Source: an uncultured Candidatus Binatia bacterium
GTDB lineage: Bacteria > Desulfobacterota > Binatia > HRBIN30 > JACQVA1
DNA length: 64,000 nucleotides
Direction of reading: 5' to 3'
Assembly (NCBI GenBank): GCA_964648215.1
Contig: CAZYMF010000004.1
Coordinates: forward strand, 7,827-71,826
This document shows, piece by piece, positions 1,547-56,496 of this stretch. The notes under the pieces are model-generated. The model ran no database searches. It was not told the DNA's origin and saw only the letters and a program-made list of their open reading frames with translations. A program made the position numbers and the translations under genes. Every line of letters starts with the position of its first letter. The stretch's first letter is position 1.

Positions 1547-1610
1547 CGATCCCCCCCTTCGCGTGCGGCGCAGCATGCAACATTCGTATTTGCACTGTCA
1601 ATGCAAGGAA

Positions 1611-1642
1611 GTGAGTCACTGAATCAGTGAATCACTGAGTCA
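1611..1642. repeat. Tandem 8-bp repeat array A (4 units, consensus STGARTCA)
   Basis: Read directly: GTGAGTCA CTGAATCA GTGAATCA CTGAGTCA. Intergenic, upstream of the DUF3604 gene start. Confidence 0.9.
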
Positions 1643-1734
1643 TTGCCTCGGAGAAATGAGCCCAAAGGCAGATCTACAGTAGGATGACTCCCAAACGTGG
1701 GTGGCACCGGGCTCCGTCCGGTGCTCCGACACTC

Positions 1735-1774
1735 CGAATCACTGATTCAGTGATTCAGTGATTCAGTGATTCAG
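1735..1774. repeat. Tandem 8-bp repeat array B (5 units), inverted relative to array A
   Basis: Read directly: CGAATCAC TGATTCAG TGATTCAG TGATTCAG TGATTCAG, the reverse complement of CTGAATCA. The ampG-like stop codon (1765-1763) lies inside the array. Confidence 0.9.
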
Positions 1775-2953
1775 TTCTTCTTCGTGGATCCACCCCTTCA
1801 CCCACGGCAGCAGGCCGAAGGCGGGGAGGGCGAGCAGGAAGGTGAGCGCGAAGTAGTTGCCGTAGCCGAGGCGCGCGGCGCCCCAGCCGCTGACGCCGCC
1901 GGCCAGCGAGCGGGTGAAGCCGAAGATCGCCGACAGCAGCGCGTACTCGGTGGCCGCCTGGCGCTTGTCGCAGATGTGCATGAGGAAGGCGAGGAAGGCG
2001 GCGGTGCCGAGGCCGCCGGTGAAGCTCTCCAGCAGCGAGGCGCTGTAGATGCCGATCCGGCCGGCGTCGGCGTAGGCGACGGCGGCGTAGCCGAGGTTGG
2101 AGCAGGCCTGCAGCAGGCCGAGGGCCCACAGGCCGCGAAAGATGCCCCAACGCGTGGTCAGCACGCCGCCGGCAAGCGCGCCGGCGATGCTGGCGAGGAC
2201 GCCGAAGGTGGTCGACACCAGGCCGATCTCCGCCACCGTCAGGCCGCGGTCGACCCAGAACGGCTTGACCATCGGCCCCATGCTGCTGTCGCCGAGCTTG
2301 TAGGTGAGGACGAAGAGAAAGATCAGCGGTGCTCCCGGGCGCTGCAGCCAGGCGAGCAGCGGGGCGAACCAGCTACCTTGGGCCGATTCGCCTTGAAAGG
2401 CCGGCCGCGGGCTGCGCCAGGCGGCGGCGGCGAGCAGGGCGCAGATGGCGGCCGCCACCCAGAAGACCACCCGCCAGCCGAGCGTCCCGGCCAGAATCAC
2501 CAGGCCGCCGCCGCCGAGGATCAGCGCCACCCGGTAGGCGGAGACACGCACACCGTTGGCGACGCCTTCCTCGCCGGGCGCCAGCAGGCCGATGGTGTAG
2601 GCGTCGATGGCGATGTCCTGCGTCGCCGAGGCGGTGGTCAGGGCGAGCAGCAGCGCCCACAGCCAGAACGTCGGCCGGCCGGGATCGAGCAGCGGTAGCA
2701 CCACCAGCAGCGCGGACATCGACAGCAGCGCCGCCGTGATCCAGTGGCGCCGCTCGCCGAAGCGGTCGACCAGCGGCGCCCACAGCACCTTCAGCGTCCA
2801 CGGCAGGCCGAGCAGGCTGAGCAGCCCGATGTCGACCAGCGACACGCCGTGAACGCGGAAGTAGACGGGCAGGTTGTCGACCGCGATGCCGAAGGGGAAC
2901 CCCTCGGCGAAGTAGAGAACCGAGACCCAAAAGAGCTTCCGCCGTAGCTCCAT
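1763..2953 (-). CDS. ampG: AmpG-family MFS muropeptide permease
   Basis: 396-aa ORF with multiple TM segments. The N-terminus LYFAEGFPFGIAVDNLPVYFRVHGVSLVDIGLLSLLGLPWTLKVLWAPLVDRFG matches the conserved AmpG signature as I know it. Confidence 0.85.
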   Translation of the reverse strand: MELRRKLFWVSVLYFAEGFPFGIAVDNLPVYFRVHGVSLVDIGLLSLLGLPWTLKVLWAPLVDRFGERRHWITAALLSMSALLVVLPLLDPGRPTFWLWALLLALTTASATQDIAIDAYTIGLLAPGEEGVANGVRVSAYRVALILGGGGLVILAGTLGWRVVFWVAAAICALLAAAAWRSPRPAFQGESAQGSWFAPLLAWLQRPGAPLIFLFVLTYKLGDSSMGPMVKPFWVDRGLTVAEIGLVSTTFGVLASIAGALAGGVLTTRWGIFRGLWALGLLQACSNLGYAAVAYADAGRIGIYSASLLESFTGGLGTAAFLAFLMHICDKRQAATEYALLSAIFGFTRSLAGGVSGWGAARLGYGNYFALTFLLALPAFGLLPWVKGWIHEEELNH

Positions 2954-3729: not shown

Positions 3730-4521
3730 ATGAAGGAACAGACGTATTACCGCGATCACTGGATCGAGGTCGCGCCCGAGCGCGTCGATGTCTACGAGGA
3801 GATGTTTCGCTGGCGGCCGCAGATGGAGCCGCTGCTCCTGCCCGCCGCTCTCGCCCCGGGGCAGCACGTCGTGGACTATGGCTGCGGCCCGGGGATGCTC
3901 GCCCTCGAGCTGGCGCGCCGGGTCGGCACGGCGGGACACGTCCACGGCGTCGACCTGAACGAGGTCTTCCTCGACCGGGCGCGGCAGCACGCCGCGGCGG
4001 AAGGCTTCGCCGACCGGGTCAGCTTTCATCGCATCGTCGAGGATCGGGTGCCGCTGGCCGACGCCTCGGTGGACCGGGTGATCTGCAAGAACGTGCTGGA
4101 GTACGTCGGCGACGTGACGGCGACGCTGTCCGACTTCCGCCGCGTGCTGCGGCCCGGCGGCCTGGTGCACGCCATCGACAGCGACTGGGGCATGCTCGCC
4201 GTCGAGCCGATCGGTCCCGAGCGTCTGGGCGAGCTCTTCCGGGCCGCCAGCATCGCCTATCGCACGCCGCTGATCGGCCGCAAGCTGTACGGTTTCATGC
4301 GCGCGGCCGGCTTTCGTGAAGTCAAGGTCAAGATCCTGGCGACGGCGGACACGCAGGGCTTCCTCGCCCCGGTGGTCTTGAACATGGCCACCTACGCGCG
4401 CGAGTCCGGCCGCCTCGAGCCGTCCTGGGTGGATGCGCTGCTGGAAGATCTGCAGCGGGCGATGGCCGACGGCACCTACCTGCTGGTGCTGCCGCAGTTT
4501 CTGGTCACGGGCGCCGCCTGA
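3730..4521 (+). CDS. Class I SAM-dependent methyltransferase
   Basis: SAM-binding motif I VVDYGCGPGMLALELARRVG, later DRVICKNVLEYV and LRPGGLV, typical of the Methyltransf_11/25 type. Confidence 0.85.
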   Translation: MKEQTYYRDHWIEVAPERVDVYEEMFRWRPQMEPLLLPAALAPGQHVVDYGCGPGMLALELARRVGTAGHVHGVDLNEVFLDRARQHAAAEGFADRVSFHRIVEDRVPLADASVDRVICKNVLEYVGDVTATLSDFRRVLRPGGLVHAIDSDWGMLAVEPIGPERLGELFRAASIAYRTPLIGRKLYGFMRAAGFREVKVKILATADTQGFLAPVVLNMATYARESGRLEPSWVDALLEDLQRAMADGTYLLVLPQFLVTGAA

Positions 4522-4546
4522 CCGGCGCGAGAGAGAGGAGGAGGCA

Positions 4547-4951
4547 ATGAAGCGGTTGTCGATCCTGATGGTTGTCGTGGGGGTGACGATGATTGCGTTC
4601 CTGCCGTTCGCCTTCTCGGTGTGGCCGGCGGGTTTCCAGTGGGGACACCCGGGAGGGCACCCGGCCTACGAGCGTATGATCGTCGCCATCTACGTGTCGC
4701 TCGGCATCTGCCTGATCCTCGGCGCCCGCGACCCGCTGCGCAACGTGATCATCATCGACTTCACGATCATCTCCAGCCTGCTCCACGGCGGGGTGATGAC
4801 CTACGATGCCATCGCGCAGCATCACGAGCTGACGCACCTCGTCGGCGACGTGCCCTTGCTGTTCGGTCTGGCGGCGCTGTTCCTCTATCTGCATCCGAAA
4901 CGGTTGGCGAAGATGCCGCCGCCCGCCGACGCCGGCTCCGGACCGCTCTGA
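4547..4951 (+). CDS. Small integral membrane protein, unknown function
   Basis: ATG at 4547 preceded by GGAGGAGG. MKRLSILMVVVGVTMIAFLPFAF plus three further hydrophobic segments. No motif recognised. Confidence 0.6.
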   Translation: MKRLSILMVVVGVTMIAFLPFAFSVWPAGFQWGHPGGHPAYERMIVAIYVSLGICLILGARDPLRNVIIIDFTIISSLLHGGVMTYDAIAQHHELTHLVGDVPLLFGLAALFLYLHPKRLAKMPPPADAGSGPL

Positions 4952-5021
4952 CGGTGGGCATGCCGCGCCGGCGCCGTCCGCGGATTGCAGCGTCCGCGGA
5001 TTTCTGCTGACAAGCACGGAG

Positions 5022-7904
5022 ATGGAGAAGCTGGCGCGCTGGGCGCTCGTGCTGCTGGCGATGGCGGTCGTGCTGTGGGTGCGCACGCGGCCGCTCGCCC
5101 TGCCGATCACCGACGATTGGGCCGATCAACTCCTGCGGCGGCAGCTCGCCTACCGTATCGTTCAGGACGATCGGCACCGGGGTCGCGCGGCATCTCCGGC
5201 GCAGGTGGAACGGGAGGTGCAGTCCTGGATCGACGACCATGCCGAGCGCTTCGACGCGCAGCGTGCGGCCGCGTCGGAGAGTCTGCGCTCGCGCCTGCGC
5301 CACGTCGGGCCCGACGGCCGCGAGCACGTATTCCTCGGCGACGTCGACAGCTACCAATGGCTGCGCGCCGCGCGCAATTATCTCGATCACGGCACCACCT
5401 GCGACGCCGTCGTCGACGGCGAGTGCCGCGACACCCTGGCCGACGCGCCGGTGGGCGCGCGCATGATCTACAACCGCTCGCTGCACATTGCCGCCATCGT
5501 CGCCGTGCACGAGGTGATCACCTTCTTCCATCCCGGCTATCCGCTGTCGTCGAGCTCGTTCTGGGTGCCCGTGCTCGTCGGGGTGCTCGGCGTGCTGCCC
5601 GCCTTCGGCCTCGGCTGGCGCCTGGGCGGCAACGCGGGCGGCTTTTGCGCCGCGCTGCTGGTGGGGCTCGACTCGTCGCTGTTGACGCGCAGCATCGGCA
5701 GCGACAACGACGTGTGGAACGTCGTCCTGCCCTTGTTCCTGTTCTGGGCCGCGGTCGAGGCGCTGGCGGCCGGGAACCGGTGGCGTCGGATCGGCTTCGC
5801 CGTTCTCGCCGGCGTGTTCGCCGGCCTGCACGCGGCGACGTGGCGCGGATGGATCTTCGGCTACGTCGTGTTGCTGGCCGGCCTTGCCGGGACGCTGCTG
5901 TTCCACGCTCTGCGCCTGGCGTGGCAGCGGTGGCGTGGCGTTGCCGGGGCGGCAACCGCGGTCCGCGACGTTGCCGTCGTGCTCGCCGTCTTCTACGTCA
6001 GCGCGGGGGTCTTCACCACGCTTGCCGGCGCGCCGCAGTCCTATCTCGACTTGCCGTTGCGCCTGCTGGGTGGCGGCGTCGCCGAGGCCGCCGCGCCGCC
6101 ACCCAGCGCGGTCGACCTGTGGCCGAGCGCGCTGGCCACCGTTGCCGAGCTGGTGACGCCGAATCTGGGCAACATCGCCGATAGCAAGGGAGGCAAGCTC
6201 GCGCTCTTCGGTGCTCTGCTCGGGCTGTTGCTGTTGCTGCAACCGGAGGCGTGGTGGCGCCGACGCGGTCCCTGGCGCGACGCCTACGCGTCTGTCCTGG
6301 TGGCTGGCGTTGCCGCGGACGCGGTGCTGCTGTTCGCGGCGCCGTCGACCCGGTTCGCCGTCCTGGCTCTGGTGGTGGCGCCTTTGCTCGCGACCGTGCT
6401 GCTGCGGCTGGTCGATCCTGACGCAGAGAGCGAGCGCGCCAACGCGGCGCTCCTGATCGCGGTGTGGTTCCTAGCCGCCTTCTCTCTCAGCTTCGGCGCC
6501 GTGCGCTTTCTACTGCTGCTCGGCCCGCCCTTCGGTCTCGTGCTCGGAGGAGCGGCCGGTCGTCTGCAACGAGCGATCGCATCGGGCGCGCGCCGGCCGG
6601 CCGTTGCCGGGGCCGCGGTGCTCGCCGCCACCCTTCCGTTCGTGCTGCCACCCCTCTGGGGCGGCTACCGCGTCGCGCGCGCCTACGTTCCCAAGATCAG
6701 CGATGCCTGGTGGGGCACGCTGACCAACATCCGTGATCACTCGGCGCCCGATGCCATCGTCGATGCGCTGTGGGACTACGGCTACTGGGTGAAGTACGTG
6801 GCGCAGCGCCGCGTCAGCTGCGACGGCGGCACGCTGTCGACGCACGTGCACCACTGGTTCGGTCGCGCGCTGGTGACGCCGAGCGAGACCGAGAGCATCG
6901 GCCTGCTGCGCATGCTCAACTGCGGCTCCGACGCCACGCCGCACCCGGAGGGAGCCGAGGGAGCGTACGGCAAGATCGTCGCCAAGCTGCACGACCCGAT
7001 CGCCGCCGCCGCGCTGGTGACCGAGCTCGCCAGCCTCGACGAGAACGCGGCGCGCGTGGCGCTGGCGGCAAAAGGCTTCACGGCCGCGGAGCAGGCAAAC
7101 GTGCTGCGCTCCACCCACTGCCGGCCGCCGGAGTCGTTTCTGCTTCTCACCACCGAGCAGCTCGCCACGGCGACGACGTGGATGCAGTTCGGCCGCTGGG
7201 ATCTTGCCAAGGCGTACGTGGCGCAGGTGGCGCCTTACACACCGCAGCAAGAGCTGGTGCCGGAGCTGAGGAAACGCTTCGGCTACAGCGAGGAGAAGGC
7301 AACTTCGCTCTACACGCAGGCGCGCCAACTGCGCTCGCGGAAGGAACGCGAGAACTTCGCCGGACCGTCGGCGTGGTATCTGACGACGCAATGGGTACCC
7401 TGCCGCAGCGAGGCCGGCGGCAAGATGGTCTGCCCGCTGGGAATGACGGACAAGCAGACGGGGGACGTCCTCGAGGCCTTCGTCTACGATCCGGCCGCGC
7501 CCGAGCGCAGCCGACTGCGGGTGCGGCACGCGCCCGGCGGCGCTCTCGCCGCCGGCGTCACGGAGGAAACCCCGGCGGCGCTGTTGCTGGCCGACGCCGG
7601 GGGCGAGCGGGGCGTCACCCTGGGGCCGGCGACCGTGGCCCGGTTCGGCGCCCTGGTCGACGTTCCGAATCACCGGGTGCTGGTCGGCAGCCCGTTTCTG
7701 CTGCGCTCCACCTTCGTGCAGTTGATGTATCTCGATGGCCGCTACGCTCACCGCTACCAGAAGTTCGACGAGCGCGTCGCCTACAACGGCGAGCGCATCG
7801 AGGTGTGGCGGGTGAGGTGGGGAGTCACGGATCGGACCGATCGGACCGATCCGACTGATCGGACGGATCGGTCCGATCGGTCCGATGCCCCGCCCCCCGG
7901 CTGA
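5022..7904 (+). CDS. STT3/PglB/AglB-family oligosaccharyltransferase (GT66-like), 960 aa
   Basis: Polytopic N-terminal half followed by a large soluble C-terminal domain. Motifs: GDVDSYQWLRAARNY (first acidic loop motif), RSIGSDNDVWNVVLPLF (second acidic motif), ALWDYGYWVKYVAQRRVSCDGGT (the WWDYG hallmark followed by a DGGK-like element), and a tail STFVQLMYLDGRY resembling the PglB C-terminus as I recall it. Confidence 0.85.
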   Translation: MEKLARWALVLLAMAVVLWVRTRPLALPITDDWADQLLRRQLAYRIVQDDRHRGRAASPAQVEREVQSWIDDHAERFDAQRAAASESLRSRLRHVGPDGREHVFLGDVDSYQWLRAARNYLDHGTTCDAVVDGECRDTLADAPVGARMIYNRSLHIAAIVAVHEVITFFHPGYPLSSSSFWVPVLVGVLGVLPAFGLGWRLGGNAGGFCAALLVGLDSSLLTRSIGSDNDVWNVVLPLFLFWAAVEALAAGNRWRRIGFAVLAGVFAGLHAATWRGWIFGYVVLLAGLAGTLLFHALRLAWQRWRGVAGAATAVRDVAVVLAVFYVSAGVFTTLAGAPQSYLDLPLRLLGGGVAEAAAPPPSAVDLWPSALATVAELVTPNLGNIADSKGGKLALFGALLGLLLLLQPEAWWRRRGPWRDAYASVLVAGVAADAVLLFAAPSTRFAVLALVVAPLLATVLLRLVDPDAESERANAALLIAVWFLAAFSLSFGAVRFLLLLGPPFGLVLGGAAGRLQRAIASGARRPAVAGAAVLAATLPFVLPPLWGGYRVARAYVPKISDAWWGTLTNIRDHSAPDAIVDALWDYGYWVKYVAQRRVSCDGGTLSTHVHHWFGRALVTPSETESIGLLRMLNCGSDATPHPEGAEGAYGKIVAKLHDPIAAAALVTELASLDENAARVALAAKGFTAAEQANVLRSTHCRPPESFLLLTTEQLATATTWMQFGRWDLAKAYVAQVAPYTPQQELVPELRKRFGYSEEKATSLYTQARQLRSRKERENFAGPSAWYLTTQWVPCRSEAGGKMVCPLGMTDKQTGDVLEAFVYDPAAPERSRLRVRHAPGGALAAGVTEETPAALLLADAGGERGVTLGPATVARFGALVDVPNHRVLVGSPFLLRSTFVQLMYLDGRYAHRYQKFDERVAYNGERIEVWRVRWGVTDRTDRTDPTDRTDRSDRSDAPPPG

Positions 7905-9036
7905 GGAGGGCTTCGCACTCGCCCACGATCCGTGCCGCGGCATCGACGGTTGCCCACTGCCGCAAGCGGCGCGAGGCGGCGGTCCAGCCGGCGGTGTCGC
8001 GCAGCAGCGAGACGAGGCGCGAGGCCAGCGCCTCCACCCGCCACTGCTCCTCGCGCACCCACCAGCCACCGGCCTCGTTGGCCCAGGTCGAAGCGTTCGG
8101 CGTCTGGTGGTCGTCGGCGGCCGACGGCAGCGGTACCAGCAGCGCCGGCAGACCGGCGACGGCGAGCTCGGCGATCGTCGCCGCGCCGGCACGGGCGAGG
8201 GCGAAGTCGGCCCAGCGATAGGCGCCGGCCATGTCGTCGAAGTATCGCTCCACCTGCGCCGCGATGCCCGCCCCGGCGTAGGCGGCAACGACGGGAGCCG
8301 GATCGTTCTCGCCGACCTGATGGCGGACCTCGACCGCGAGGCGACGAGCGGCCAGCTGCCGCGCGAGCTCGGGTGCCTGCCGGTTGAAGAAGCGCGCCCC
8401 CTGTGAGCCGCCGGTGATCAGGAGGTGCGCGGCTCTCTGCGACGGGTGCGGCGACTGGCGCGGCTCGTGGTACAGGGCGGCGATCTCCGGGCGCACCGGG
8501 TTCCCGGTGATGCGCCGGTGCGCCGCGGGGAGCTCGCGGCCGGCGGAGGCGAAGCCGAGGTAGACGCGATCGACGAGGCGGGCGAGCCACTTGTTGGTCA
8601 GCCCCGGCACCACGTTGGCCTCGTGGATCGCGCTGGGGATCCCGAGCAGGCGCGCCGCCAGCAGCGGGCCCGCCGAGGTGTAACCGCCGAAGCCGAGCAC
8701 GAGATGCGTCCCTTGCCGCCGGAACAGACGGCCCGCCTGGGCCGTTGCGGCGATCACGCCGGCGACGGCGCGCGCCTTTCCGGCCAGGCTCGCCCCGAAC
8801 AACGGTGCGCCCGCTACCTGCTCCAGCCGATAGCCGTGCCGCGGCACCAGGCGCGACTCGTATCCGGCGCGGGTACCGAGAAACAGCACGTCGACGTCCG
8901 GTCGGGCTTGGCGATAGGCGGCGGCGACGGCGAGGGCCGGGGAGACGTGCCCGGCGGTGCCGCCGCCGATCATGGCCACCCGCCGCGACGCGGCGGCCGC
9001 GGAAGAGGTGGGCTCGGGATCGGAGTGCGGCGGCAT
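7825..9036 (-). CDS. murG: MurG-like GT28 UDP-GlcNAc transferase (paralog-like context, outside any dcw cluster)
   Basis: This is the C-terminal 403 codons of the 813-aa track ORF. MIGGGTAGHVSPALAVAAAY, GFGGYTSAGPLLAARLLGIPSAIHEAN, LLITGGSQGA and ARAGAATIAELAVAGLPALLVPLP are classical MurG motifs. Start ATG at 9036 (or the inner ATG near 8973). The upstream part of the track ORF is antisense to the next gene. Confidence 0.85.
   Translation of the reverse strand: MPPHSDPEPTSSAAAASRRVAMIGGGTAGHVSPALAVAAAYRQARPDVDVLFLGTRAGYESRLVPRHGYRLEQVAGAPLFGASLAGKARAVAGVIAATAQAGRLFRRQGTHLVLGFGGYTSAGPLLAARLLGIPSAIHEANVVPGLTNKWLARLVDRVYLGFASAGRELPAAHRRITGNPVRPEIAALYHEPRQSPHPSQRAAHLLITGGSQGARFFNRQAPELARQLAARRLAVEVRHQVGENDPAPVVAAYAGAGIAAQVERYFDDMAGAYRWADFALARAGAATIAELAVAGLPALLVPLPSAADDHQTPNASTWANEAGGWWVREEQWRVEALASRLVSLLRDTAGWTAASRRLRQWATVDAAARIVGECEALLSRGAGHRTDRTDPSDQSDRSDRSDP
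7831..7886. repeat. 9-bp tandem repeat (ATCGGWCCG x6) forming a perfect long hairpin at convergent gene ends
   Basis: Units ATCGGACCG ATCGGACCG ATCCGACTG ATCGGACGG ATCGGTCCG ATCGGTCCG. Positions 7831-7851 are the exact reverse complement of 7866-7886 (21 bp), extendable by 2 bp inward. It lies inside both the STT3 ORF (stop 7902-7904) and the murG-like ORF (stop 7827-7825). Confidence 0.9.
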
Positions 9037-9150
9037 CGGCGTGCGACTGTAACGGGGCGCCGGGGGGCGAGGCAATCGCCCCGCGCCGGCGCACGCCGTT
9101 CGGCACCGGCGCCGTTCTCGTGTATAGGCGGCGTGGCGCTGTCCTTTCCC

Positions 9151-10224
9151 ATGTGGACTTACGGTCTCCTTTGCGGCACGGCGGCTGCGGTGGCGTTTCT
9201 CCTCACACCGGCGGTGCGCCTGCTGGCGTTGCATTTCGGCGCCGTCGACGAGCCCGGCGGCCGGCGGGCGCACCGCGGGCGGATCCCGCGCCTGGGCGGC
9301 CTGGCCGTGTTGGGTGCCGGCCTCCTCGGGCTGTTGTTGCCGTGGCTGGGCGGGGTGCCGGTGTTCGCCGCGCTGATCGCCCGCGGCTGGAGGCTGGGCT
9401 GGTTCTTGGCGGGAACGCTGCTGATCACCGCTGTCGGCGTTTTCGACGACTGCCGCGAGGCGACGCCGTGGCCCAAGCTCGCGTTCGAGACGCTGGCGGC
9501 GGTGGTCGCGGTCGCCGGCGGCTTCGGCTTCTCCGCCGTGTCGAATCCGTTCACCGGCGGCTCCATCGAGCTCGGCGCGCTGGGAGCCTTGCTCTCCGTG
9601 CTGTGGATCGTCGGCATCACCAACGCCTTCAACCTCATCGACGGACTGGACGGTCTGGCGGCCGGCGTTGCCCTGATCGCCGCGGCGACCATCTTCGTGC
9701 TCGCGGGGGTGCAGGCGCGCCCGGACGCGGCCGTGCTCACCGCCGTGCTCGCCGGCGCGCTGCTCGGCTTTCTGCGCTACAACTTTCATCCCGCCTCGAT
9801 CTTCCTTGGCGACTCCGGCAGCTTGTTGCTCGGCTACGTGCTCTCGGTGCTGTCCATCCAAGGGCAGCAAAAGGTCCCGACCGTCGTCGTCCTGCTGGTG
9901 CCGATCCTGGTGCTCGCCCTGCCGATCGTGGAGACCGTGGTCACCGTCGTGCGCCGCTACGGTCGCGAGGGCGCGGCGGGTCTCTTCCACGCCGATCGTG
10001 AGCACATCCACCACCGCCTGGTGATGCGGGGCATGGCGCCGCGGCGCGCGGTGTTGCTGCTCTACGGTATCTGCAGCGGCCTCGGCCTGCTGGCGGTGCT
10101 CGCCGTGGTCGCCGGCGGACCGGGCAGCGCGGTGCTCGTGCTGGTCGCCGCCCTCGCCGGCTATTTCGGGCTGCGCCGTCTGGGGTACGGCTTCGTGCGC
10201 GGCGGAACCCTGACCCATGACTGA
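9151..10224 (+). CDS. Polyprenyl-phosphate GlcNAc-1-phosphate transferase (WecA/MraY PNPT family)
   Basis: Starts at ATG 9151 (MWTYGLLCG). About 10 TM segments; VFDDCRE acidic motif; NAFNLIDGLDGLAAG; FLGDSGSLLLGY; HIHHRLV. Divergent from the murG-like gene. Confidence 0.85.
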   Translation: MWTYGLLCGTAAAVAFLLTPAVRLLALHFGAVDEPGGRRAHRGRIPRLGGLAVLGAGLLGLLLPWLGGVPVFAALIARGWRLGWFLAGTLLITAVGVFDDCREATPWPKLAFETLAAVVAVAGGFGFSAVSNPFTGGSIELGALGALLSVLWIVGITNAFNLIDGLDGLAAGVALIAAATIFVLAGVQARPDAAVLTAVLAGALLGFLRYNFHPASIFLGDSGSLLLGYVLSVLSIQGQQKVPTVVVLLVPILVLALPIVETVVTVVRRYGREGAAGLFHADREHIHHRLVMRGMAPRRAVLLLYGICSGLGLLAVLAVVAGGPGSAVLVLVAALAGYFGLRRLGYGFVRGGTLTHD

Positions 10225-10963
10225 AGCGTCACCCGGGCCCTCGTCGCCCACGGCGGGCTCGACCACACTGGTCCTGCTGTCCTACGACGAGCGCGAGGCC
10301 CTCGAGCGGCTCCTGCCGCTGATCCCCCTCCACCTCTTCGAGCGGGTCGTCGCCATCGACCCGGGCTCGACCGACGGCACGTTGGCTCTGTACGAGGCGC
10401 GCGGGATTCCGTGCGTGATTCAACCCGCGCGCGGGCGCGGCAATGCGTTCTTGCTGGCGGCGGAGATCGTCGACAGCGAGCGGGTGGTCTTCTTCAGCGC
10501 CGACGGCAACGAGAACCCGGAAGATCTGCCCCTGCTGCTCCGCTATCTCGACGAGGGCAACGACCTGGTCATCGGCGGCCGCTTCCTCCGCCCCGGATCG
10601 TGCAGCGACAACAGCGACGACCCCTGGCGGTTGCGCCGCGCCGGCTCGATCGGCTTCAGCCTGGTCGTCCGGCTGCTGTGGGGCTGCGACGTGTGGGACT
10701 CGTGCAACGGCTTTCGCGGCTTCCGCGTCGAGGCCATGCGGCGCCTGCGTCTGGACGCGCCGTTGCACGAGATCGAGCTGCAGAGCACCATCCGCGCCGC
10801 CAAGCTGGGCATGAAGATCAAGGAGTTCCCGACCCGCGAGCTGCGGCGGATGGGCGGCTGGCGCAAGCCGACCGCCGGGACCTGGACCCTGGGTTGGAGG
10901 ACGGCTCTCTATCTCGTGCGCGAGATCCTCATCGGCCGGCGCTTCGATGGCTCGCCGCGCTGA
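10217..10963 (+). CDS. Small GT2 glycosyltransferase, polyprenyl-phosphate sugar synthase-like (Dpm1/ArnC-like size and layout)
   Basis: LVLLSYDEREALERLLPLI, AIDPGSTDGT, FFSADGNENPEDLP, NGFRGFR. 248 aa and soluble. Its start overlaps the preceding stop by 8 nt and its end overlaps the next start. Confidence 0.75.
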   Translation: MTEASPGPSSPTAGSTTLVLLSYDEREALERLLPLIPLHLFERVVAIDPGSTDGTLALYEARGIPCVIQPARGRGNAFLLAAEIVDSERVVFFSADGNENPEDLPLLLRYLDEGNDLVIGGRFLRPGSCSDNSDDPWRLRRAGSIGFSLVVRLLWGCDVWDSCNGFRGFRVEAMRRLRLDAPLHEIELQSTIRAAKLGMKIKEFPTRELRRMGGWRKPTAGTWTLGWRTALYLVREILIGRRFDGSPR

Positions 10964-12422
10964 CCCCCCGGCCGCGCCCGCCGCCGTCCGCGGCTGGAAG
11001 CGGCACCTGCCCGTCCTGCTGCTGTGTCTGTTCTTCGTCGGGCTCTACGCCACGACGTTGCGGTCGCTGGGGATGCTGGGATGGGACGAGTCGGAGTACG
11101 CCTCGCTGGGCCGCTCGGTGCTGCGGGGCGAGGGATTCTCGATCAGCGGGCGGCCCAACTCGCTGCGCCCGCCGCTGCTGCCGCTGGCGGTGACGGCGAG
11201 CTTGCTGGTGACCGGCAGCGCCAGCGACGTCGCCGCGAAGCTGCCCAACCTCTCCTTCAGCGCGCTCGCCCTCCTGGTCGTCTACGCGGCGATGGCGCGC
11301 GAGCGGGACCGCCTCACCGCCTGGATCGCCACCGCCTTTCTCGGGCTGATGCCGACGTTCTGGCTCTTCACCCCCAGGTTGCTGACCGAGATTCCGTTCA
11401 TGGCGTTCTTCACCGCCGCGATCGCGTGCTTCTATTTCGGCCTCTACCGTGACGGGCGTTTCTTCTATGTCAGCTGGATCTCCGTCGCGCTGGCGTTGCT
11501 GAGCCGCTACACGGCGGTGCTGTTCGGGCCCATCGCGCTGGCTTTCACGCTGATGGCGCTTGCCGCCGCCGACGCCCGCCAACGGATCCGTGGGCGGCAC
11601 TTCTGGCTCTCCCCCTTCGCCGGCCTGGCGCTGTTGCTGCCCTGGCTGCTGCGCCAGCAGCTCGTCTTCGGCAGCGCCCTGGTCGGGTTTCAGCATGCCT
11701 CCGGGCAGCTGCAGGCGTACCTGCCGGGGGTCTCGATGCCGTGGTACTTCTACCCGGCCCACGTCCCGGGGATGGTCTCGCCGCTGCTGTGCGCGCCGTT
11801 GCTCGTCGGCATCGTCTGGGCGGTGCGGACGCGGGACCGCTTTGCCTTGCACTGCCTCTTCGTGGTCGGGTTCGTCTTGCTGTGGTTCAGCGCCTATCGC
11901 TTCAAGGAGATCCGCATGGCGACGTCGACGTTGCCCTTCCTGGCCATGGTGGCGGCGCTCGGTGTGACGCAGGTCGTTCTGCCGCGGCGGCTGACGGCAC
12001 CCGTGCTCGGCGGGGTCGCCGTCTTCCTGATCGGTGTCTTCGCCTTCTCCTTCGTCAGGACGCACCGATTCTTCTCGCGCGCGGTGACGCTCGGCTATCC
12101 CTCCTTCACCGAAGCGATGCGTGCGGTGCGCGAGCGCACGGCGCCCAACACCGTCCTGATGGGCGCCAGCGTGCCGCAGATCTTCTGGTACGCCGATCGT
12201 CACGTCGTCGATTTCCCCGACGAGAAGGATCTCCCCGGGGCCTTGCGGCGGTGCGACTGGGTGGTCGTGGTCAACTTCGAGCGCGGACAGAAGCCCTATG
12301 CGCGCCAGTTGCTGGCCAAGGTGACCCAGGAGGACGGTGCGCAAGGGAACGCGCTCGTCTCCCGCGATGTGCGTTTCACCACGGTGTTGATTCGCGCCTC
12401 GCTGTTGCGGGAGCGGTTGTAG
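10947..12422 (+). CDS. GT-C fold glycosyltransferase of ArnT/PMT (GT83/GT39) type
   Basis: 491 aa and polytopic. The first periplasmic loop carries LGWDESEYASLGRS (a DE-x-x-Y motif as in ArnT/PMT_2 proteins). The C-terminal soluble region is about 110 aa. Confidence 0.8.
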   Translation: MARRADPPAAPAAVRGWKRHLPVLLLCLFFVGLYATTLRSLGMLGWDESEYASLGRSVLRGEGFSISGRPNSLRPPLLPLAVTASLLVTGSASDVAAKLPNLSFSALALLVVYAAMARERDRLTAWIATAFLGLMPTFWLFTPRLLTEIPFMAFFTAAIACFYFGLYRDGRFFYVSWISVALALLSRYTAVLFGPIALAFTLMALAAADARQRIRGRHFWLSPFAGLALLLPWLLRQQLVFGSALVGFQHASGQLQAYLPGVSMPWYFYPAHVPGMVSPLLCAPLLVGIVWAVRTRDRFALHCLFVVGFVLLWFSAYRFKEIRMATSTLPFLAMVAALGVTQVVLPRRLTAPVLGGVAVFLIGVFAFSFVRTHRFFSRAVTLGYPSFTEAMRAVRERTAPNTVLMGASVPQIFWYADRHVVDFPDEKDLPGALRRCDWVVVVNFERGQKPYARQLLAKVTQEDGAQGNALVSRDVRFTTVLIRASLLRERL

Positions 12423-54501: not shown

Positions 54502-55518
54502 ATGAGTGACGTGACCGCAGTCGTGCTGAGCATCGGGGAGCCCTACACGGAGCGGGCGTTGGCGAGCGTAGGGCGCCAGACGCTGCCGGTCGCCGAGACC
54601 GTTATGGTGCGTGGCGTCTCGCCATTTCACTGTGCCTTGAATAGAGGGGCGGCGCAGGTGCGCACGCCCTTCTTCCTTCACGTCGACGCCGACATGGTCC
54701 TCGACGAGGGCTGCCTCGCGGCGCTGCGCCCGCTCATGAGGGATCGGGTCGGCCTGGTCCAGGGCCGCCTGCGCGATCCGCTGTGCGGCCGGATCGCCGG
54801 GATTCGCCTGGTTCGCACCGAGTGCTGGGCTGAGACCCCGTACGCCGATTCGATTGCGCCCGAGTCGTTGTTCACTCGCGACCTCGCCGGGAATGGCTGG
54901 TTGTTCGTCGAGGCGCTCCGGTACGAGGGGGCGAACCCCAGGGCGTGGCACTCCTTCGGCGAGCACAGCCCCGCGTACGATCTCGTCTACACGCTGTCGA
55001 AGTTCCGCATCAACGGTGCGCGCTATCGCCATCTGGGACGAGCCGACTTCCTGATGAAAATGACCGAGCGCGTGCGACGCAGCGACCACCCCTCCGCCCT
55101 CATCGCCCTGCTCGGCTTGACCCACGGTGTCTTCGGCCTGGTCGGCGGCAGCGCCGACGCGCTGCGCCCATACACGGCCGACGCGGAGCACGCTTTCGTC
55201 GAGCGCTTTCTGACGCGGCCCGCGACGGGAGAAGATTGCGCGGCCCCTCTCGGGCTGACAGCGCCTCCGGCGGGCGTTTTCCGTACGTGCTACCGCCGCG
55301 GGGCGGAGATCGGGCGAGTCGGCGGGGCCGACGATCTGCGGGCCGTGGTGCGCAGCCTGGACGGGACCTCCGCGGACCTACGGTTGGCGGCCCTACTGGG
55401 TCTCGGCCACGGCTTCTTCCACGCGTTGCGAGCGGCCGATTCTCTCGGCCCCGAGCTCGCCATCCTCGCCGAGTTCCTTCCCCAAATCACTGATTCGGTG
55501 ACTCAGTGGACTCAGTGA
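54502..55518 (+). CDS. GT-A (GT2-like) glycosyltransferase domain protein with an uncharacterised C-terminal half
   Basis: VVLSIGEPYTERALASVGRQTLP ... FFLHVDADMVL (DxD). The last residues ITDSVTQWTQ and the stop are encoded by repeat array C. Confidence 0.5.
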   Translation: MSDVTAVVLSIGEPYTERALASVGRQTLPVAETVMVRGVSPFHCALNRGAAQVRTPFFLHVDADMVLDEGCLAALRPLMRDRVGLVQGRLRDPLCGRIAGIRLVRTECWAETPYADSIAPESLFTRDLAGNGWLFVEALRYEGANPRAWHSFGEHSPAYDLVYTLSKFRINGARYRHLGRADFLMKMTERVRRSDHPSALIALLGLTHGVFGLVGGSADALRPYTADAEHAFVERFLTRPATGEDCAAPLGLTAPPAGVFRTCYRRGAEIGRVGGADDLRAVVRSLDGTSADLRLAALLGLGHGFFHALRAADSLGPELAILAEFLPQITDSVTQWTQ

Positions 55519-55523
55519 TTCAC
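55483..55523. repeat. Tandem 8-bp repeat array C (TGAYTCRG-type, about 5 units)
   Basis: ...AAATCAC TGATTCGG TGACTCAG TGGACTCAG TGATTCAC. Same unit family as arrays A and B. It sits between convergent genes ending at 55518 and 55536. Confidence 0.85.
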
Positions 55524-55535
55524 TGCATCCATCCC

Positions 55536-56333
55536 TCACCTCAGACGCTTGGTGAAGAACTCGATGATCTCCGCCACCGCCTGGCGCGTCGGCTGATTCT
55601 GCTCGTCGATGAGGTGCAGCGTCACGACGCTGTGCGGGTTCTTCATCGGCGCGTCGGGGTTGGCGGCGCTGTCGGGCAGCACCCGGGGCTGGAATCGGTC
55701 TCCCAACGCCTGGCGATACGCGGCGAAGCGCTGCGCGCGGCAGAAGCTGTCGCCCTCGAAGCGATAGGCGAGCACGGTGAGGTTCTCGCGATCGAGCCGC
55801 TCCTTGACCGCCGCCAGCTCGTCGGGCGCGATGTGCATGCCGGCCGCCTGTAGCAGCGGCAGCGACGGCTGCGACAGCACCGGCGCCAGCATCGCCGGCT
55901 CGAGCATCATCGACAGGGCGAAGTTGCCGGTGAAGCACATCCCGATCGCGCCGACGCCCTTGCCGCCGCAGAGCGGGTGGGCGTGCGCCGCCAGGGCCCG
56001 CAGCCATTGTGTCACCGGGCTCGACGCGTTGGCGGCGAAGGCACGGAACTCGGCGCTGACGCACCCTTTGACCATCGAGCGGAGGCTGTAGCCGGTCGAC
56101 ACCGGGCGTCCGGGATCGCCGAACAGATTCGGCATCCACACGGCGAAGCCGGCGTCGCGGATCCAGCGCGCGAAGCGGGCGACGTGCGGCGAGATGCCTG
56201 GCATCTCGGTCATGACGATGACCGCGGGTCCGCTGCCGGCGACGAAGACGAGCTTGGTCTTGCCCTGTAGCGTCACCTGGCGGCGTTCGAAGTCCGCGAG
56301 CGCATCCGGCTTTTCCAGATCGGTCTCTGCCAT
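55536..56333 (-). CDS. Dienelactone hydrolase family (alpha/beta hydrolase) protein
   Basis: ATG 56333 (MAETDLEKP). VIVMTEMPGISPHVARFARWIRDAGFAVWMPNLFG, GAIGMCFTGNFAL (nucleophile region). Confidence 0.6.
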   Translation of the reverse strand: MAETDLEKPDALADFERRQVTLQGKTKLVFVAGSGPAVIVMTEMPGISPHVARFARWIRDAGFAVWMPNLFGDPGRPVSTGYSLRSMVKGCVSAEFRAFAANASSPVTQWLRALAAHAHPLCGGKGVGAIGMCFTGNFALSMMLEPAMLAPVLSQPSLPLLQAAGMHIAPDELAAVKERLDRENLTVLAYRFEGDSFCRAQRFAAYRQALGDRFQPRVLPDSAANPDAPMKNPHSVVTLHLIDEQNQPTRQAVAEIIEFFTKRLR

Positions 56334-56496
56334 GGTCTCGGTCCCCTTCTGTCGGTCGGTGCGCCACCGTAGCCAACTTCGACCGAACGCGCCACCCGCC
56401 GCGGGGACGCACACCTCGGCCTGTGGTAGTGTCCTACTTTGCGGCAGACCATGGGTTGACAAGCTGTTTGGGATTGAAACCGAAGTCTGGGGGCAA

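What the first reader, a model, noticed from the sequence alone, without database searches (positions are those of the whole stretch)
7823..7904. Convergent STT3 and murG-like ORFs overlap by 80 bp across a 9-bp tandem array that is also a perfect 21-23 bp hairpin
Six ATCGGWCCG units (7831-7884) form an array. Its first 21 nt (7831-7851) are the exact reverse complement of 7866-7886.

Both ORFs read through the array. Because the unit is nearly palindromic, both acquire similar (T/S)DR tails: + strand VTDRTDRTDPTDRTDRSDRSDAPPPG, and - strand HRTDRTDPSDQSDRSDRSDP.

Three readings are possible:
- A bidirectional transcription terminator or RNA-stabilising stem shared by two functionally linked genes. 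There is no U-tract on either side.
- A slippage-prone repeat that varies the C-termini.
- A genome-wide REP-like element captured by ORF ends.
Basis: seen in the sequence. Interest (0 to 1): 0.6.

Follow-up and report, generated by a model that had tools for sequence, protein, structure and literature searches.

The report
Variable palindromic 9-bp repeat joining two genes
Two glycosylation genes that face each other both read through a fast-changing 9-base tandem repeat; it is one copy of a scattered, apparently undescribed repeat family, and it looks like a tolerated passenger rather than a purpose-built terminator.

Summary
Window 7830-7886 holds 6.3 units of GATCSGWCS. They fold into a 23-bp stem (-65 and -68.5 kcal/mol). 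They lie inside an 80-bp 3' overlap of an STT3-type oligosaccharyltransferase (+, 5022-7904) and a second, non-dcw MurG-like GT28 gene (-, 7825-9036).

The array is one copy of a dispersed family:
- In this genome the same word builds the three arrays of the only four-helix-bundle-suffix/zinc-ribbon gene (contig C27).
- It occurs in 11 of 41 genomes of the order, at up to about 30 places per genome, and in 3 of 400 other genomes of the phylum. Reversed-word controls gave 0.
- It also occurs in many other phyla and in viral contigs.

The unit has no stop codon in any of the six frames. Both ORFs therefore run through it and gain (S/T)DR tails; the GT28 tail is predicted to be unstructured.

A near-identical strain has 3 units instead of 6, plus 6 substitutions within 21 bp. 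Orthologues at 72-84% identity have 2-5 units at the same junction. More distant orthologues have none, and both genes stay intact. Hairpin strength is not conserved.

Best reading: a tolerated, REP-like, slippage- and template-switch-prone repeat. A terminator role is untested and unlikely to be essential. No RNA data could be obtained.

The parts
7830..7886 (.). Tandem array of 6.3 GATC-phased 9-bp units (GATCSGWCS; equivalently the 9-bp palindrome TCGGWCCGA in tandem). It has no stop codon in any of the six frames.
   Evidence: The same word occurs elsewhere in the genome.
7831..7853 (.). Left arm of the 23-bp stem.
   Evidence: Compared with the sister strain, three substitutions here (7831, 7834, 7843) each create complementarity with the right arm.
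7864..7886 (.). Right arm of the 23-bp stem.
5022..7904 (+). STT3/PglB-type oligosaccharyltransferase gene, 960 aa. The conserved body ends near residue 933. Residues 934-960 (GVTDRTDRTDPTDRTDRSDRSDAPPPG) are the array-encoded tail plus the old end.
   Evidence: Pfam STT3 E 9.5e-27 and STT3-PglB_core. A WDYG motif is visible in the translation. Homologues align only up to residues 931-943.
7825..9036 (-). MurG-like GT28 glycosyltransferase gene, 403 aa. It is a second paralogue outside the dcw cluster. The tail RTDRTDPSDQSDRSDRSDP is encoded by the array.
   Evidence: TIGR01133 266.6 bits against a cut-off of 250, and both GT28 Pfam domains. Start as in the called orthologue P0004. The AlphaFold2 body has pLDDT 90.6; the last ~20 residues score about 47-54. 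The canonical murG sits between ftsW and murC on C42.
7825..7904 (.). 80-bp 3' overlap of the two convergent ORFs. Without the six units it would be about 26 bp, close to the 20-29 bp seen in family-level relatives.
1608..1777 (.). Second gene-less hairpin in the window, of the same class but built from another word. Its arms are arrays of the 8-bp word TCAGTGAW, the word that flanks the four-helix-bundle gene on contig C17.
   Evidence: I1; -95.1 kcal/mol, z -8.65. The genome has 26 clusters of this word.
55483..55536 (.). Third array of the 8-bp word family. It lies at another convergent gene junction and supplies the stop codon of ORF 54502-55518.

Best explanation
The 57-bp stretch is one copy of a dispersed family of GATC-phased 9-bp tandem repeats.

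What it is related to. In this genome the same word forms the upstream and linker arrays of the single four-helix-bundle-suffix/zinc-ribbon gene on contig C27. In the order, genomes that carry that gene's orthologue are the ones with many solo arrays.

Where it sits. This copy lies in what was a short 3' overlap of a conserved convergent pair in a glycosylation cluster: an STT3-type oligosaccharyltransferase and a MurG-like GT28 transferase.

Why both genes read through it. The unit is three codons long and has no stop codon in any of the six frames. Both ORFs therefore run on to the next stop and acquire (S/T/P)D(R/P) tails as a by-product; the GT28 tail is predicted to be unstructured.

How it changes. 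The array turns over quickly, by 9-bp gains and losses and by clustered substitutions that make its two halves complementary. That pattern is the signature of quasi-palindrome template switching. The perfect 23-bp hairpin is therefore mainly a product of the palindromic unit and this mutational process, not a conserved device.

Likely consequence. It probably places a very stable stem-loop at the 3' end of both mRNAs, which could impede read-through or exonucleases, or be cut by RNase III.

Shown: the anatomy, the dispersal, the variation between strains and orthologues, the absence in more distant orthologues, and the predicted disordered GT28 tail. Inferred: the slippage and template-switch mechanism, the link to the four-helix-bundle gene as source or partner, and any effect on RNA.
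For: 1. Dispersed family.
- In the own genome the same word is found only at C27 (three arrays in and around the TIGR04258 plus TIGR02436 plus zinc-ribbon gene), at C297, and here.
- It is in 11 of 41 order relatives, with all reversed-word controls at 0.
- It is in 3 of 400 other genomes of the phylum.
- It gave at least 120 stretches across many phyla and 37 viral contig stretches.

2. Link to the gene.
- All 4 array-bearing genomes of the phylum sample are among the 53 of 401 with TIGR04258 (hypergeometric p about 3e-4).
- In the order, 5 of the 6 genomes with multi-site arrays carry a full-length orthologue of the C27 gene, which only 7 of 40 genomes have (p about 2e-4).
- Orthologues at 64-77% identity keep arrays at the same positions.

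3. Same pattern for other words.
- The other PF05635 genes of this genome are flanked by arrays of their own words, in inverted orientation on both sides where both flanks are held (C65, C17).
- Two of those words (TCAGTGAN, GGGTGWY) also occur as solo arrays: 26 and 13 clusters.
- Two of these solo arrays lie in this window.

4. Rapid turnover.
- Against contig L207, 3.75 kb outside the array differs by 4 substitutions and one 18-bp indel.
- The array differs by a 27-bp indel plus 6 substitutions within 21 bp. The three in-array changes each restore pairing.
- Template switching at quasi-palindromes is an established mechanism (PMC7202029, PMC8794818).

5. History at this junction.
- Orthologues at 99, 84, 76 and 72% identity have 3, about 4, 2 and 4-5 units. 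The 73% orthologue has none but keeps the right-hand edge CCGATGC.
- That array-less orthologue is nested inside the array-bearing clade (support 99/97).
- Homologues at 60% identity or less, and family-level relatives, lack the array and overlap by 20-29 bp.

6. The hairpin is not specially selected.
- 20 of the 180 distinct unit orders fold as well here.
- Across 85 arrays the real order is only 1.0 kcal/mol better than shuffled orders.
- Hairpin z-scores among orthologues range from -1.0 to -5.3.

7. The GT28 tail is predicted to be unstructured.

8. Arrays elsewhere favour gene edges.
- 48% lie at an ORF edge against 23% expected.
- Among arrays in GC-rich loci there are 11 at convergent junctions and 1 at a divergent junction. 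The share inside one gene is 15% against 36% for random places.
Against: - Persistence of an array at one junction across 72-99% protein identity is long for purely neutral DNA.
- GATC is the best-kept part of every unit, even in tails under little coding constraint. This hints at selection on the DNA or RNA.
- Two lineages (this one and L271) independently carry very strong palindromes. Selection for a stem would also produce that.
- Only 6 of 120 array loci have a four-helix-bundle-suffix ORF within 8 kb, and that protein has no known transposition activity. The proposed link to the gene is therefore correlative and is not corrected for phylogeny.
- No reads or RNA data could be examined. 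Copy number in this metagenome-assembled genome and the transcript ends are unverified.
Confidence: 0.6

Rival explanations
1. Selected bidirectional RNA hairpin. The stem-loop serves both convergent transcripts. It would act as a U-tract-less terminator or roadblock, as a 3' stabiliser against exonucleases, or as an RNase III site, as the long stems of 23S rRNA intervening sequences do.
For: - The stem is very stable on both strands.
- An array has stayed at this junction in five orthologues at 72-99% identity.
- A second lineage (L271) has an independent long palindrome that includes both stop codons.
- Arrays elsewhere favour 3' junctions: 11 convergent against 1 divergent, and many begin 0-25 nt after a stop in genome G038.
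- Another convergent junction in this window carries an array of a different word.
Against: - The stem shrinks to about 8 bp in the near-identical sister strain and is weak in L269 and L270 (z -1.0 to -1.6).
- The array-less orthologue L208 and the family-level relatives keep the same convergent pair.
- The stem lies inside both ORFs, so translating ribosomes would unwind it.
- There is no U tract.
- In G038 the gene flanks next to arrays split 18 at 3' ends against 13 at 5' ends (my tally), which is only a weak bias.
- Unit order is not better than chance for pairing.
Confidence: 0.25
2. DNA-level site array. The phased GATC nonamers would be bound or modified by a protein: the zinc-ribbon four-helix-bundle protein itself, or an enzyme acting on GATC, CGATCG or GGWCC. 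They could serve as docking or recombination sites, for example for the four-helix-bundle cassette.
For: - GATC is nearly invariant in units whose other positions drift.
- The unit is two overlapping palindromes, which is typical of dimeric DNA-binding sites (read from the sequence).
- Arrays co-occur with a gene that carries a topoisomerase-I-type zinc ribbon.
- The same word is kept across phyla.
Against: - GATC is neither over- nor under-represented in the genome (observed/expected 0.98).
- No binding, methylation or recombination data exist.
- Four-helix-bundle genes with other words use non-palindromic words with periods of 7-9 bp. GATC is therefore not general to the class.
- No cassette was seen at this junction in any orthologue.
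Confidence: 0.1
3. Contingency locus. Copy-number change would be selected because it tunes the C-terminal tails of the periplasmic oligosaccharyltransferase domain or of the GT28 enzyme.
For: Copy number differs between strains and orthologues.
Against: - Changes are always in frame, so there is no on/off switching.
- The same DNA is read in every frame elsewhere, and also lies outside genes.
- The GT28 tail is predicted to be unstructured, and both tails are absent from most homologues.
Confidence: 0.03
4. Assembly artefact. The six-unit palindrome would be a mis-assembly in this metagenome-assembled genome.
For: - The genome is a 432-contig assembly.
- Another array of the word abuts a 100-N gap on C297.
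- Reads could not be checked.
Against: Independent assemblies carry arrays at the same junction (L207, L269, L270, L271). Both reading frames remain open through the array.
Confidence: 0.02

Closest known systems
REP/REPIN elements and their RAYT transposases (PMC3116915, PMC3337134, PMC2817692)
   Same: - They are short, hairpin-forming palindromic repeats dispersed at gene boundaries.
- One protein-coding gene is flanked by the same repeat in inverted orientation, while gene-less copies are scattered in the genome.
- Their presence is patchy and lineage-specific.
   Different: - The unit here is a 9-bp tandem word of variable copy number, not a fixed 20-40 bp palindrome with a GTAG head.
- Copy number per genome is low (about 5 here, up to about 30 places in relatives).
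- The associated gene encodes a four-helix-bundle protein with no known transposase activity.
- The two Y1-transposase genes of this genome are flanked by other palindromes.
23S rRNA intervening sequences carrying an S23p / PF05635 ORF (PMC4990558)
   Same: The protein family is the same (PF05635/TIGR02436). Inverted flanks form a long stem, which in rRNA is an RNase III substrate.
   Different: This site is not in rRNA and holds no ORF: it has only the two arms and a 10-nt loop. The arms are tandem short words.
Rickettsia palindromic elements and other MITEs that insert in frame into ORFs (reviewed in PMC10969869)
   Same: They are palindromic repeats tolerated inside coding sequence, which add peptide segments to unrelated proteins.
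   Different: Those are 100-150 bp discrete elements confined to one genus. This is a 9-bp word array found in many phyla that changes length in 9-bp steps.
Quasi-palindrome template-switch hotspots (PMC7202029, PMC8794818)
   Same: Clustered substitutions perfect an imperfect inverted repeat. Mutation density is strongly raised locally compared with the flanks.
   Different: That literature describes a mutational process, not an element family. Here the process is inferred from a two-strain comparison only.
Intrinsic bidirectional terminators between convergent genes
   Same: A GC-rich stem-loop between convergent genes can be read as a hairpin on both strands.
   Different: There is no U tract on either side, the stem lies within both coding sequences, and it is not conserved in strength among orthologues.

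Membership tests
REP/REPIN-RAYT system | Short imperfect palindrome able to form a hairpin, located at gene boundaries | tested here: met
REP/REPIN-RAYT system | A RAYT (Y1 transposase) gene flanked by the same repeat | tested here: not met
   The two PF01797 genes (C356, C70) are flanked by unrelated palindromes and by no word arrays.
REP/REPIN-RAYT system | High copy number, typically more than 100 per genome | tested here: not met
   About 5 sites in the own genome and at most about 30 places in relatives.
Intrinsic (Rho-independent) terminator | GC-rich stem followed by a U tract, downstream of the stop codon | tested here: not met
   The stem is present, but there is no T run on either strand. 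The stem lies upstream of both stop codons.
Intrinsic (Rho-independent) terminator | Transcript 3' ends at the stem | not testable with these tools
Simple-sequence contingency locus | Tandem short repeat with copy-number differences between strains | tested here: met
   3 units against 6 in a near-identical strain; 2-5 units in orthologues.
Simple-sequence contingency locus | Length change switches frame or expression | tested here: not met
   The unit is 9 bp, and all observed variants keep both frames open.
Four-helix-bundle (PF05635/TIGR02436) cassette with inverted word arrays / rRNA IVS type | PF05635 ORF between the inverted arms | tested here: not met
   Only a 10-nt loop lies between the arms. 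No such ORF is at this junction in any orthologue.
Four-helix-bundle (PF05635/TIGR02436) cassette with inverted word arrays / rRNA IVS type | Arms built from the same word as a resident cassette | tested here: met
   The C27 gene carries three GATCSGWCS arrays.
MurG (TIGR01133 equivalog) | Score above the curated cut-off | tested here: met
   266.6 bits against 250.25.
MurG (TIGR01133 equivalog) | Position in the dcw cluster between ftsW and murC | tested here: not met
   The window gene lies among STT3, GT4, GT2 and PMT_2 genes. The paralogue on C42 has the murD-ftsW-murG-murC context (neighbours named from motifs read in the translations).
STT3/PglB oligosaccharyltransferase | STT3 N-terminal membrane domain plus core domain with the WWDYG-type motif | tested here: met
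   PF02516 E 9.5e-27 and PF21436 E 1.7e-5. LWDYGYW is visible in the translation. Activity was not tested.

The most novel reading that the evidence does not exclude
Short-word tandem arrays, including the GATC nonamers, would be the non-autonomous partners of PF05635 four-helix-bundle gene cassettes. This would be a widespread, undescribed REPIN/RAYT-like system that lacks a recognisable transposase. 23S rRNA intervening sequences would be its special case. The gene-less copies would settle at gene 3' junctions and act there as strand-symmetric RNA hairpins, either processing or termination sites, that are tolerated even inside reading frames.
Probability: 0.2. Interest if true: 0.75.

Novelty: new variant of a known kind. 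Interest (0 to 1): 0.5.

Why it matters
This locus is a clean natural example of three things at once:
- Two convergent genes share one stretch of DNA that is open in every frame.
- A quasi-palindrome is being perfected and resized between strains that otherwise differ at about 0.1% of positions.
- The repeat word belongs to a family that is shared across bacterial phyla and tracks a small four-helix-bundle gene of unknown role.

If the link to that gene is causal, it would give the 23S-IVS protein family a function in repeat spread or processing. It would also define a new class of dispersed bacterial repeats.

In practice, such arrays inflate ORF ends, create spurious peptide tails in annotation, and break assemblies.

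Tried and rejected
There is therefore no check of copy number, population variants or 3' ends.
- An exact look-up of the STT3 protein found nothing.
- Literature: there were no hits for the DNA word or for its peptide translations. I therefore cannot cite any description of this repeat.
- Genome-wide REP: rejected for this word in this genome, which has only about 5 sites. The C21 match is an ordinary coding sequence.
- Hairpin selected through unit order: only weakly supported.
- Fixed-size element with polarity: the length distribution decays from 3-4 units, and no consistent end-specific unit was found.
- GATC avoidance or enrichment: observed/expected is 0.98, which is uninformative.
- Pro-rich sequence after the array as a remnant of the C27 gene: rejected. 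GCTGAGG and the neighbouring bases are shared with array-less relatives, so this flank is ancestral.
- RAYT as the mobiliser: rejected.
- Rfam: nothing at gathering thresholds. The sub-threshold miRNA-precursor hits merely reflect a long hairpin.
- My home-made profile for classical four-helix-bundle genes had only two seed sequences and found nothing. The figure of 6 of 120 loci therefore counts only the suffix-type genes.
- A first script for the hairpin test timed out.
Full report
**Observation**

Window 7830-7886 holds 6.3 tandem 9-bp units: GATCGGACC, GATCGGACC, GATCCGACT, GATCGGACG, GATCGGTCC, GATCGGTCC, then GAT. Positions 7831-7851 are the exact reverse complement of 7866-7886.

Either strand folds as RNA into a 23-bp stem. 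The + strand gives -64.9 kcal/mol (z -5.9) and the - strand -68.5 kcal/mol (z -6.9). This is one of the two best inverted repeats in the whole 64-kb window.

The word is far above chance: 8 matches in the window against 0.11 expected.

The unit is itself a near-palindrome. In another register it is TCGGWCCGA, built from the overlapping palindromes CCGATCGG and CGGWCCG. Any such array can therefore fold. Of the 180 distinct orders of these six units, 20 fold at least as well as the real one.

**The genes**

The + ORF 5022-7904 is an STT3/PglB-type oligosaccharyltransferase. It hits Pfam STT3 at 9.5e-27, hits the core domain, and shows a WDYG motif.

The - ORF 7825-9036 (403 aa) passes the MurG equivalog cut-off and has both GT28 domains. 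GC3 of 0.88-0.89 supports both as real genes.

The genome has a second MurG homologue on contig C42. It lies between genes whose translations read as murD, ftsW and murC. The window gene is therefore an extra paralogue.

Its neighbours are a methyltransferase, DUF6632, a GT4 (MraY/WecA/Alg7-type) gene, a GT2 gene and a PMT_2 gene. Together these form a lipid-linked glycosylation cluster.

The convergent STT3/GT28 arrangement is conserved in family- and order-level relatives.

**History of the junction**

- Two same-family genomes (L020, L022; 43% and 52-53% protein identity) have the same convergent pair overlapping by 20-29 bp, with no array.
- Removing the six units from the window would leave about 26 bp of overlap. 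The STT3 stop context GCTGAGG is shared with those relatives.
- Metagenome and protein searches gave a graded series of closer orthologues:

| Orthologue | Identity | Units at the junction |
|---|---|---|
| this window | – | 6 |
| L207 / P0004 | 99% | 3 |
| L269 / P0005 | 84% | about 4, one with a 3-nt deletion |
| L270 / P0006 | 76% | 2 |
| L271 / P0008 | 72% | 4-5 |
| L208 / P0007 | 73% | none, but keeps the right edge CCGATGC |

- All homologues at 60% identity or less have no array.
- In a tree built without the tails, the array-less P0007 is nested inside the array-bearing clade (99/97).
- The array, or its seed, therefore dates to the ancestor of this clade. Since then it has been resized, degraded or lost.
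- GATC is the best-conserved part of every unit.

**Rate and mode of change**

Contig L207 is almost the same strain. Outside the array, 3.75 kb differs by four substitutions and one 18-bp microhomology indel.

The array region differs by a 27-bp indel and by six substitutions within 21 bp (7823, 7825, 7826, 7831, 7834, 7843). The L207 state of the left flank matches the 84% orthologue, so the window carries the derived form.

The three in-array changes each turn a mismatch into a Watson-Crick pair with the right arm. This is the published signature of quasi-palindrome template switching (PMC7202029, PMC8794818). The mechanism is inferred here, not shown.

Hairpin strength is not conserved among orthologues:

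| Locus | z-score |
|---|---|
| this window | -5.3 |
| L271 | -4.3 |
| L207 | -1.6 |
| L269 | -1.2 |
| L270 | -1.0 |

**The tails**

The unit has no stop codon in any of the six frames (read from the sequence). Both ORFs therefore run through it. An AlphaFold2 model of the GT28 protein is confident (pLDDT 90.6, pTM 0.88), except for about the last 20 residues, which score about 47-54. STT3 homologues align only up to residues 931-943 of 960. The tails are dispensable extensions.

**A dispersed family**

In the own genome the word occurs at three places:
- here;
- on contig C297, inside a cyclase/ATPase ORF next to a 100-N gap;
- three times on contig C27.

The C27 arrays lie upstream of, and as two linkers inside, a 255-aa gene with TIGR02436 and TIGR04258 domains and a topoisomerase-type zinc ribbon. 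The upstream array also extends the C-terminus of the preceding gene.

Across genomes:
- The word is in 11 of 41 order relatives, at up to about 30 places per genome, with reversed-word controls all at 0.
- It is in only 3 of 400 other genomes of the phylum.
- It gave at least 120 stretches from Planctomycetota, Verrucomicrobiota, Lentisphaerota, Acidobacteriota, Myxococcota, Hydrogenedentota and others, including isolates.
- It gave 37 viral contig stretches.

Placement:
- Arrays are read in every frame or lie outside genes.
- They favour ORF edges, 48% against 23% expected.
- In GC-rich loci 11 lie at convergent junctions and 1 at a divergent junction. They are depleted inside genes, 15% against 36% for random places.

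**Link to four-helix-bundle genes**

- All four array-bearing genomes in the phylum sample are among the 53 of 401 with TIGR04258 (p about 3e-4).
- In the order, five of the six genomes with multi-site arrays have a full-length orthologue of the C27 gene, which only 7 of 40 genomes carry (p about 2e-4). Neither figure is corrected for phylogeny.
- Orthologues at 64-77% identity keep arrays at the same positions.
- Other suffix-type genes use other 9-bp words.
- The three classical PF05635 genes of this genome are flanked by arrays of their own words; for C65 and C17, where both flanks are held, the two arrays are inverted.
- Two of those words (TCAGTGAN, GGGTGWY) also occur as solo arrays, 26 and 13 clusters.
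- Two of these solo arrays are in this window: a gene-less hairpin at 1608-1777 (-95 kcal/mol, z -8.65) and an array at a second convergent junction, 55483-55536.
- Against this, only 6 of 120 array loci have a suffix-type gene within 8 kb. Most arrays are solo.
- The genome's two Y1-transposase genes carry unrelated palindromes.

**Interpretation**

The best-supported reading is a REP-like, translation-tolerant tandem word that lodged in a 3' gene overlap. It persists there because it harms neither gene. It changes by slippage and template switching, and the striking hairpin and the twin tails are by-products.

A selected RNA-hairpin role (terminator, stabiliser or RNase III site) remains a serious rival. 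Two observations favour it: the array has persisted at this junction, and arrays in general are biased toward 3' junctions. Three observations weigh against it:
- the hairpin is weak in the sister strain;
- array-less orthologues function without it;
- the stem lies inside both ORFs and has no U tract.

No Rfam family matches. I found no description of the word or of its peptides in the searchable literature.

**Earlier notes and limits**

Earlier notes of this scan on other genomes had flagged the same GATC nonamers and hairpin-wrapped four-helix-bundle cassettes. I re-derived those points here from this genome and its relatives.

Limits:
- No reads or RNA data could be examined.
- The associations are correlative.
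- The mutational mechanism rests on a two-strain comparison.

Noticed in passing
window 1608-1777: Gene-less hairpin whose 46-nt arms are arrays of the 8-bp word TCAGTGAW around a 78-nt spacer (-95.1 kcal/mol, z -8.65). The same word flanks the PF05635 four-helix-bundle gene on contig C17 and forms 26 clusters in the genome.
   Followed up: partly
window 55483-55536: Another array of the TCAGTGAW word sits at a second convergent gene junction. It supplies the last codons and the stop of ORF 54502-55518, and the facing ORF 55536-56462 ends right beside it.
   Followed up: partly
window 3730-12422: Glycosylation cluster: SAM methyltransferase, DUF6632, STT3-type oligosaccharyltransferase, MurG-like GT28, GT4 (MraY/WecA/Alg7-type), GT2 and PMT_2. 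The GT4 + GT28 + STT3 trio mirrors the Alg7, Alg13/14 and STT3 steps of eukaryotic N-glycosylation. The convergent STT3/GT28 pair is conserved across the order.
   Followed up: partly
window 7534-7551: An 18-bp in-frame indel inside the STT3 gene relative to the near-identical strain contig L207. It is bounded by the direct repeat CCGGCG, as expected for a microhomology deletion or duplication.
   Followed up: no
own genome contig C297:3916-4041: A GATCSGWCS array inside a zinc-ribbon/adenylate-cyclase/AAA-ATPase ORF abuts a 100-N scaffold gap. Such arrays may break or mis-join assemblies.
   Followed up: partly
L271 (Ga0568866_0578372), STT3/GT28 junction: In this 72% orthologue the palindrome extends beyond the nonamers and includes both genes' stop codons (GTTACGGCGGATC...GATCCGCCGTAGTC). 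One gene end appears to have been copied as the reverse complement of the other.
   Followed up: no
L030 (G015:C76), STT3/GT28 junction: A genome from another family of the order has a degenerate 9-bp periodic stretch (GATTCCGCA GATCGAACC GATTCCGTG GATTCTGAC) at the same junction, with a 76-bp ORF overlap. This may be an old or an independent array.
   Followed up: no
own genome contig C65:1671-1761 and 2165-2195; C65:2460-2531: A four-helix-bundle gene is wrapped by GGGTGWY arrays. Next to it is a further gene-less pair built from GGGGTTR and its complement.
   Followed up: no
own genome contigs C356:1124-1456 and C70:2207-2536: Two Y1-transposase (RAYT/IS200-like) genes are each flanked by their own classical REP-like palindromes, which are unrelated to the word arrays.
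   Followed up: partly
window 59248-59562: An 84-bp tandem repeat, 3.8 copies at 90% identity, with a 42-bp sub-period. It is probably a coding repeat.
   Followed up: no
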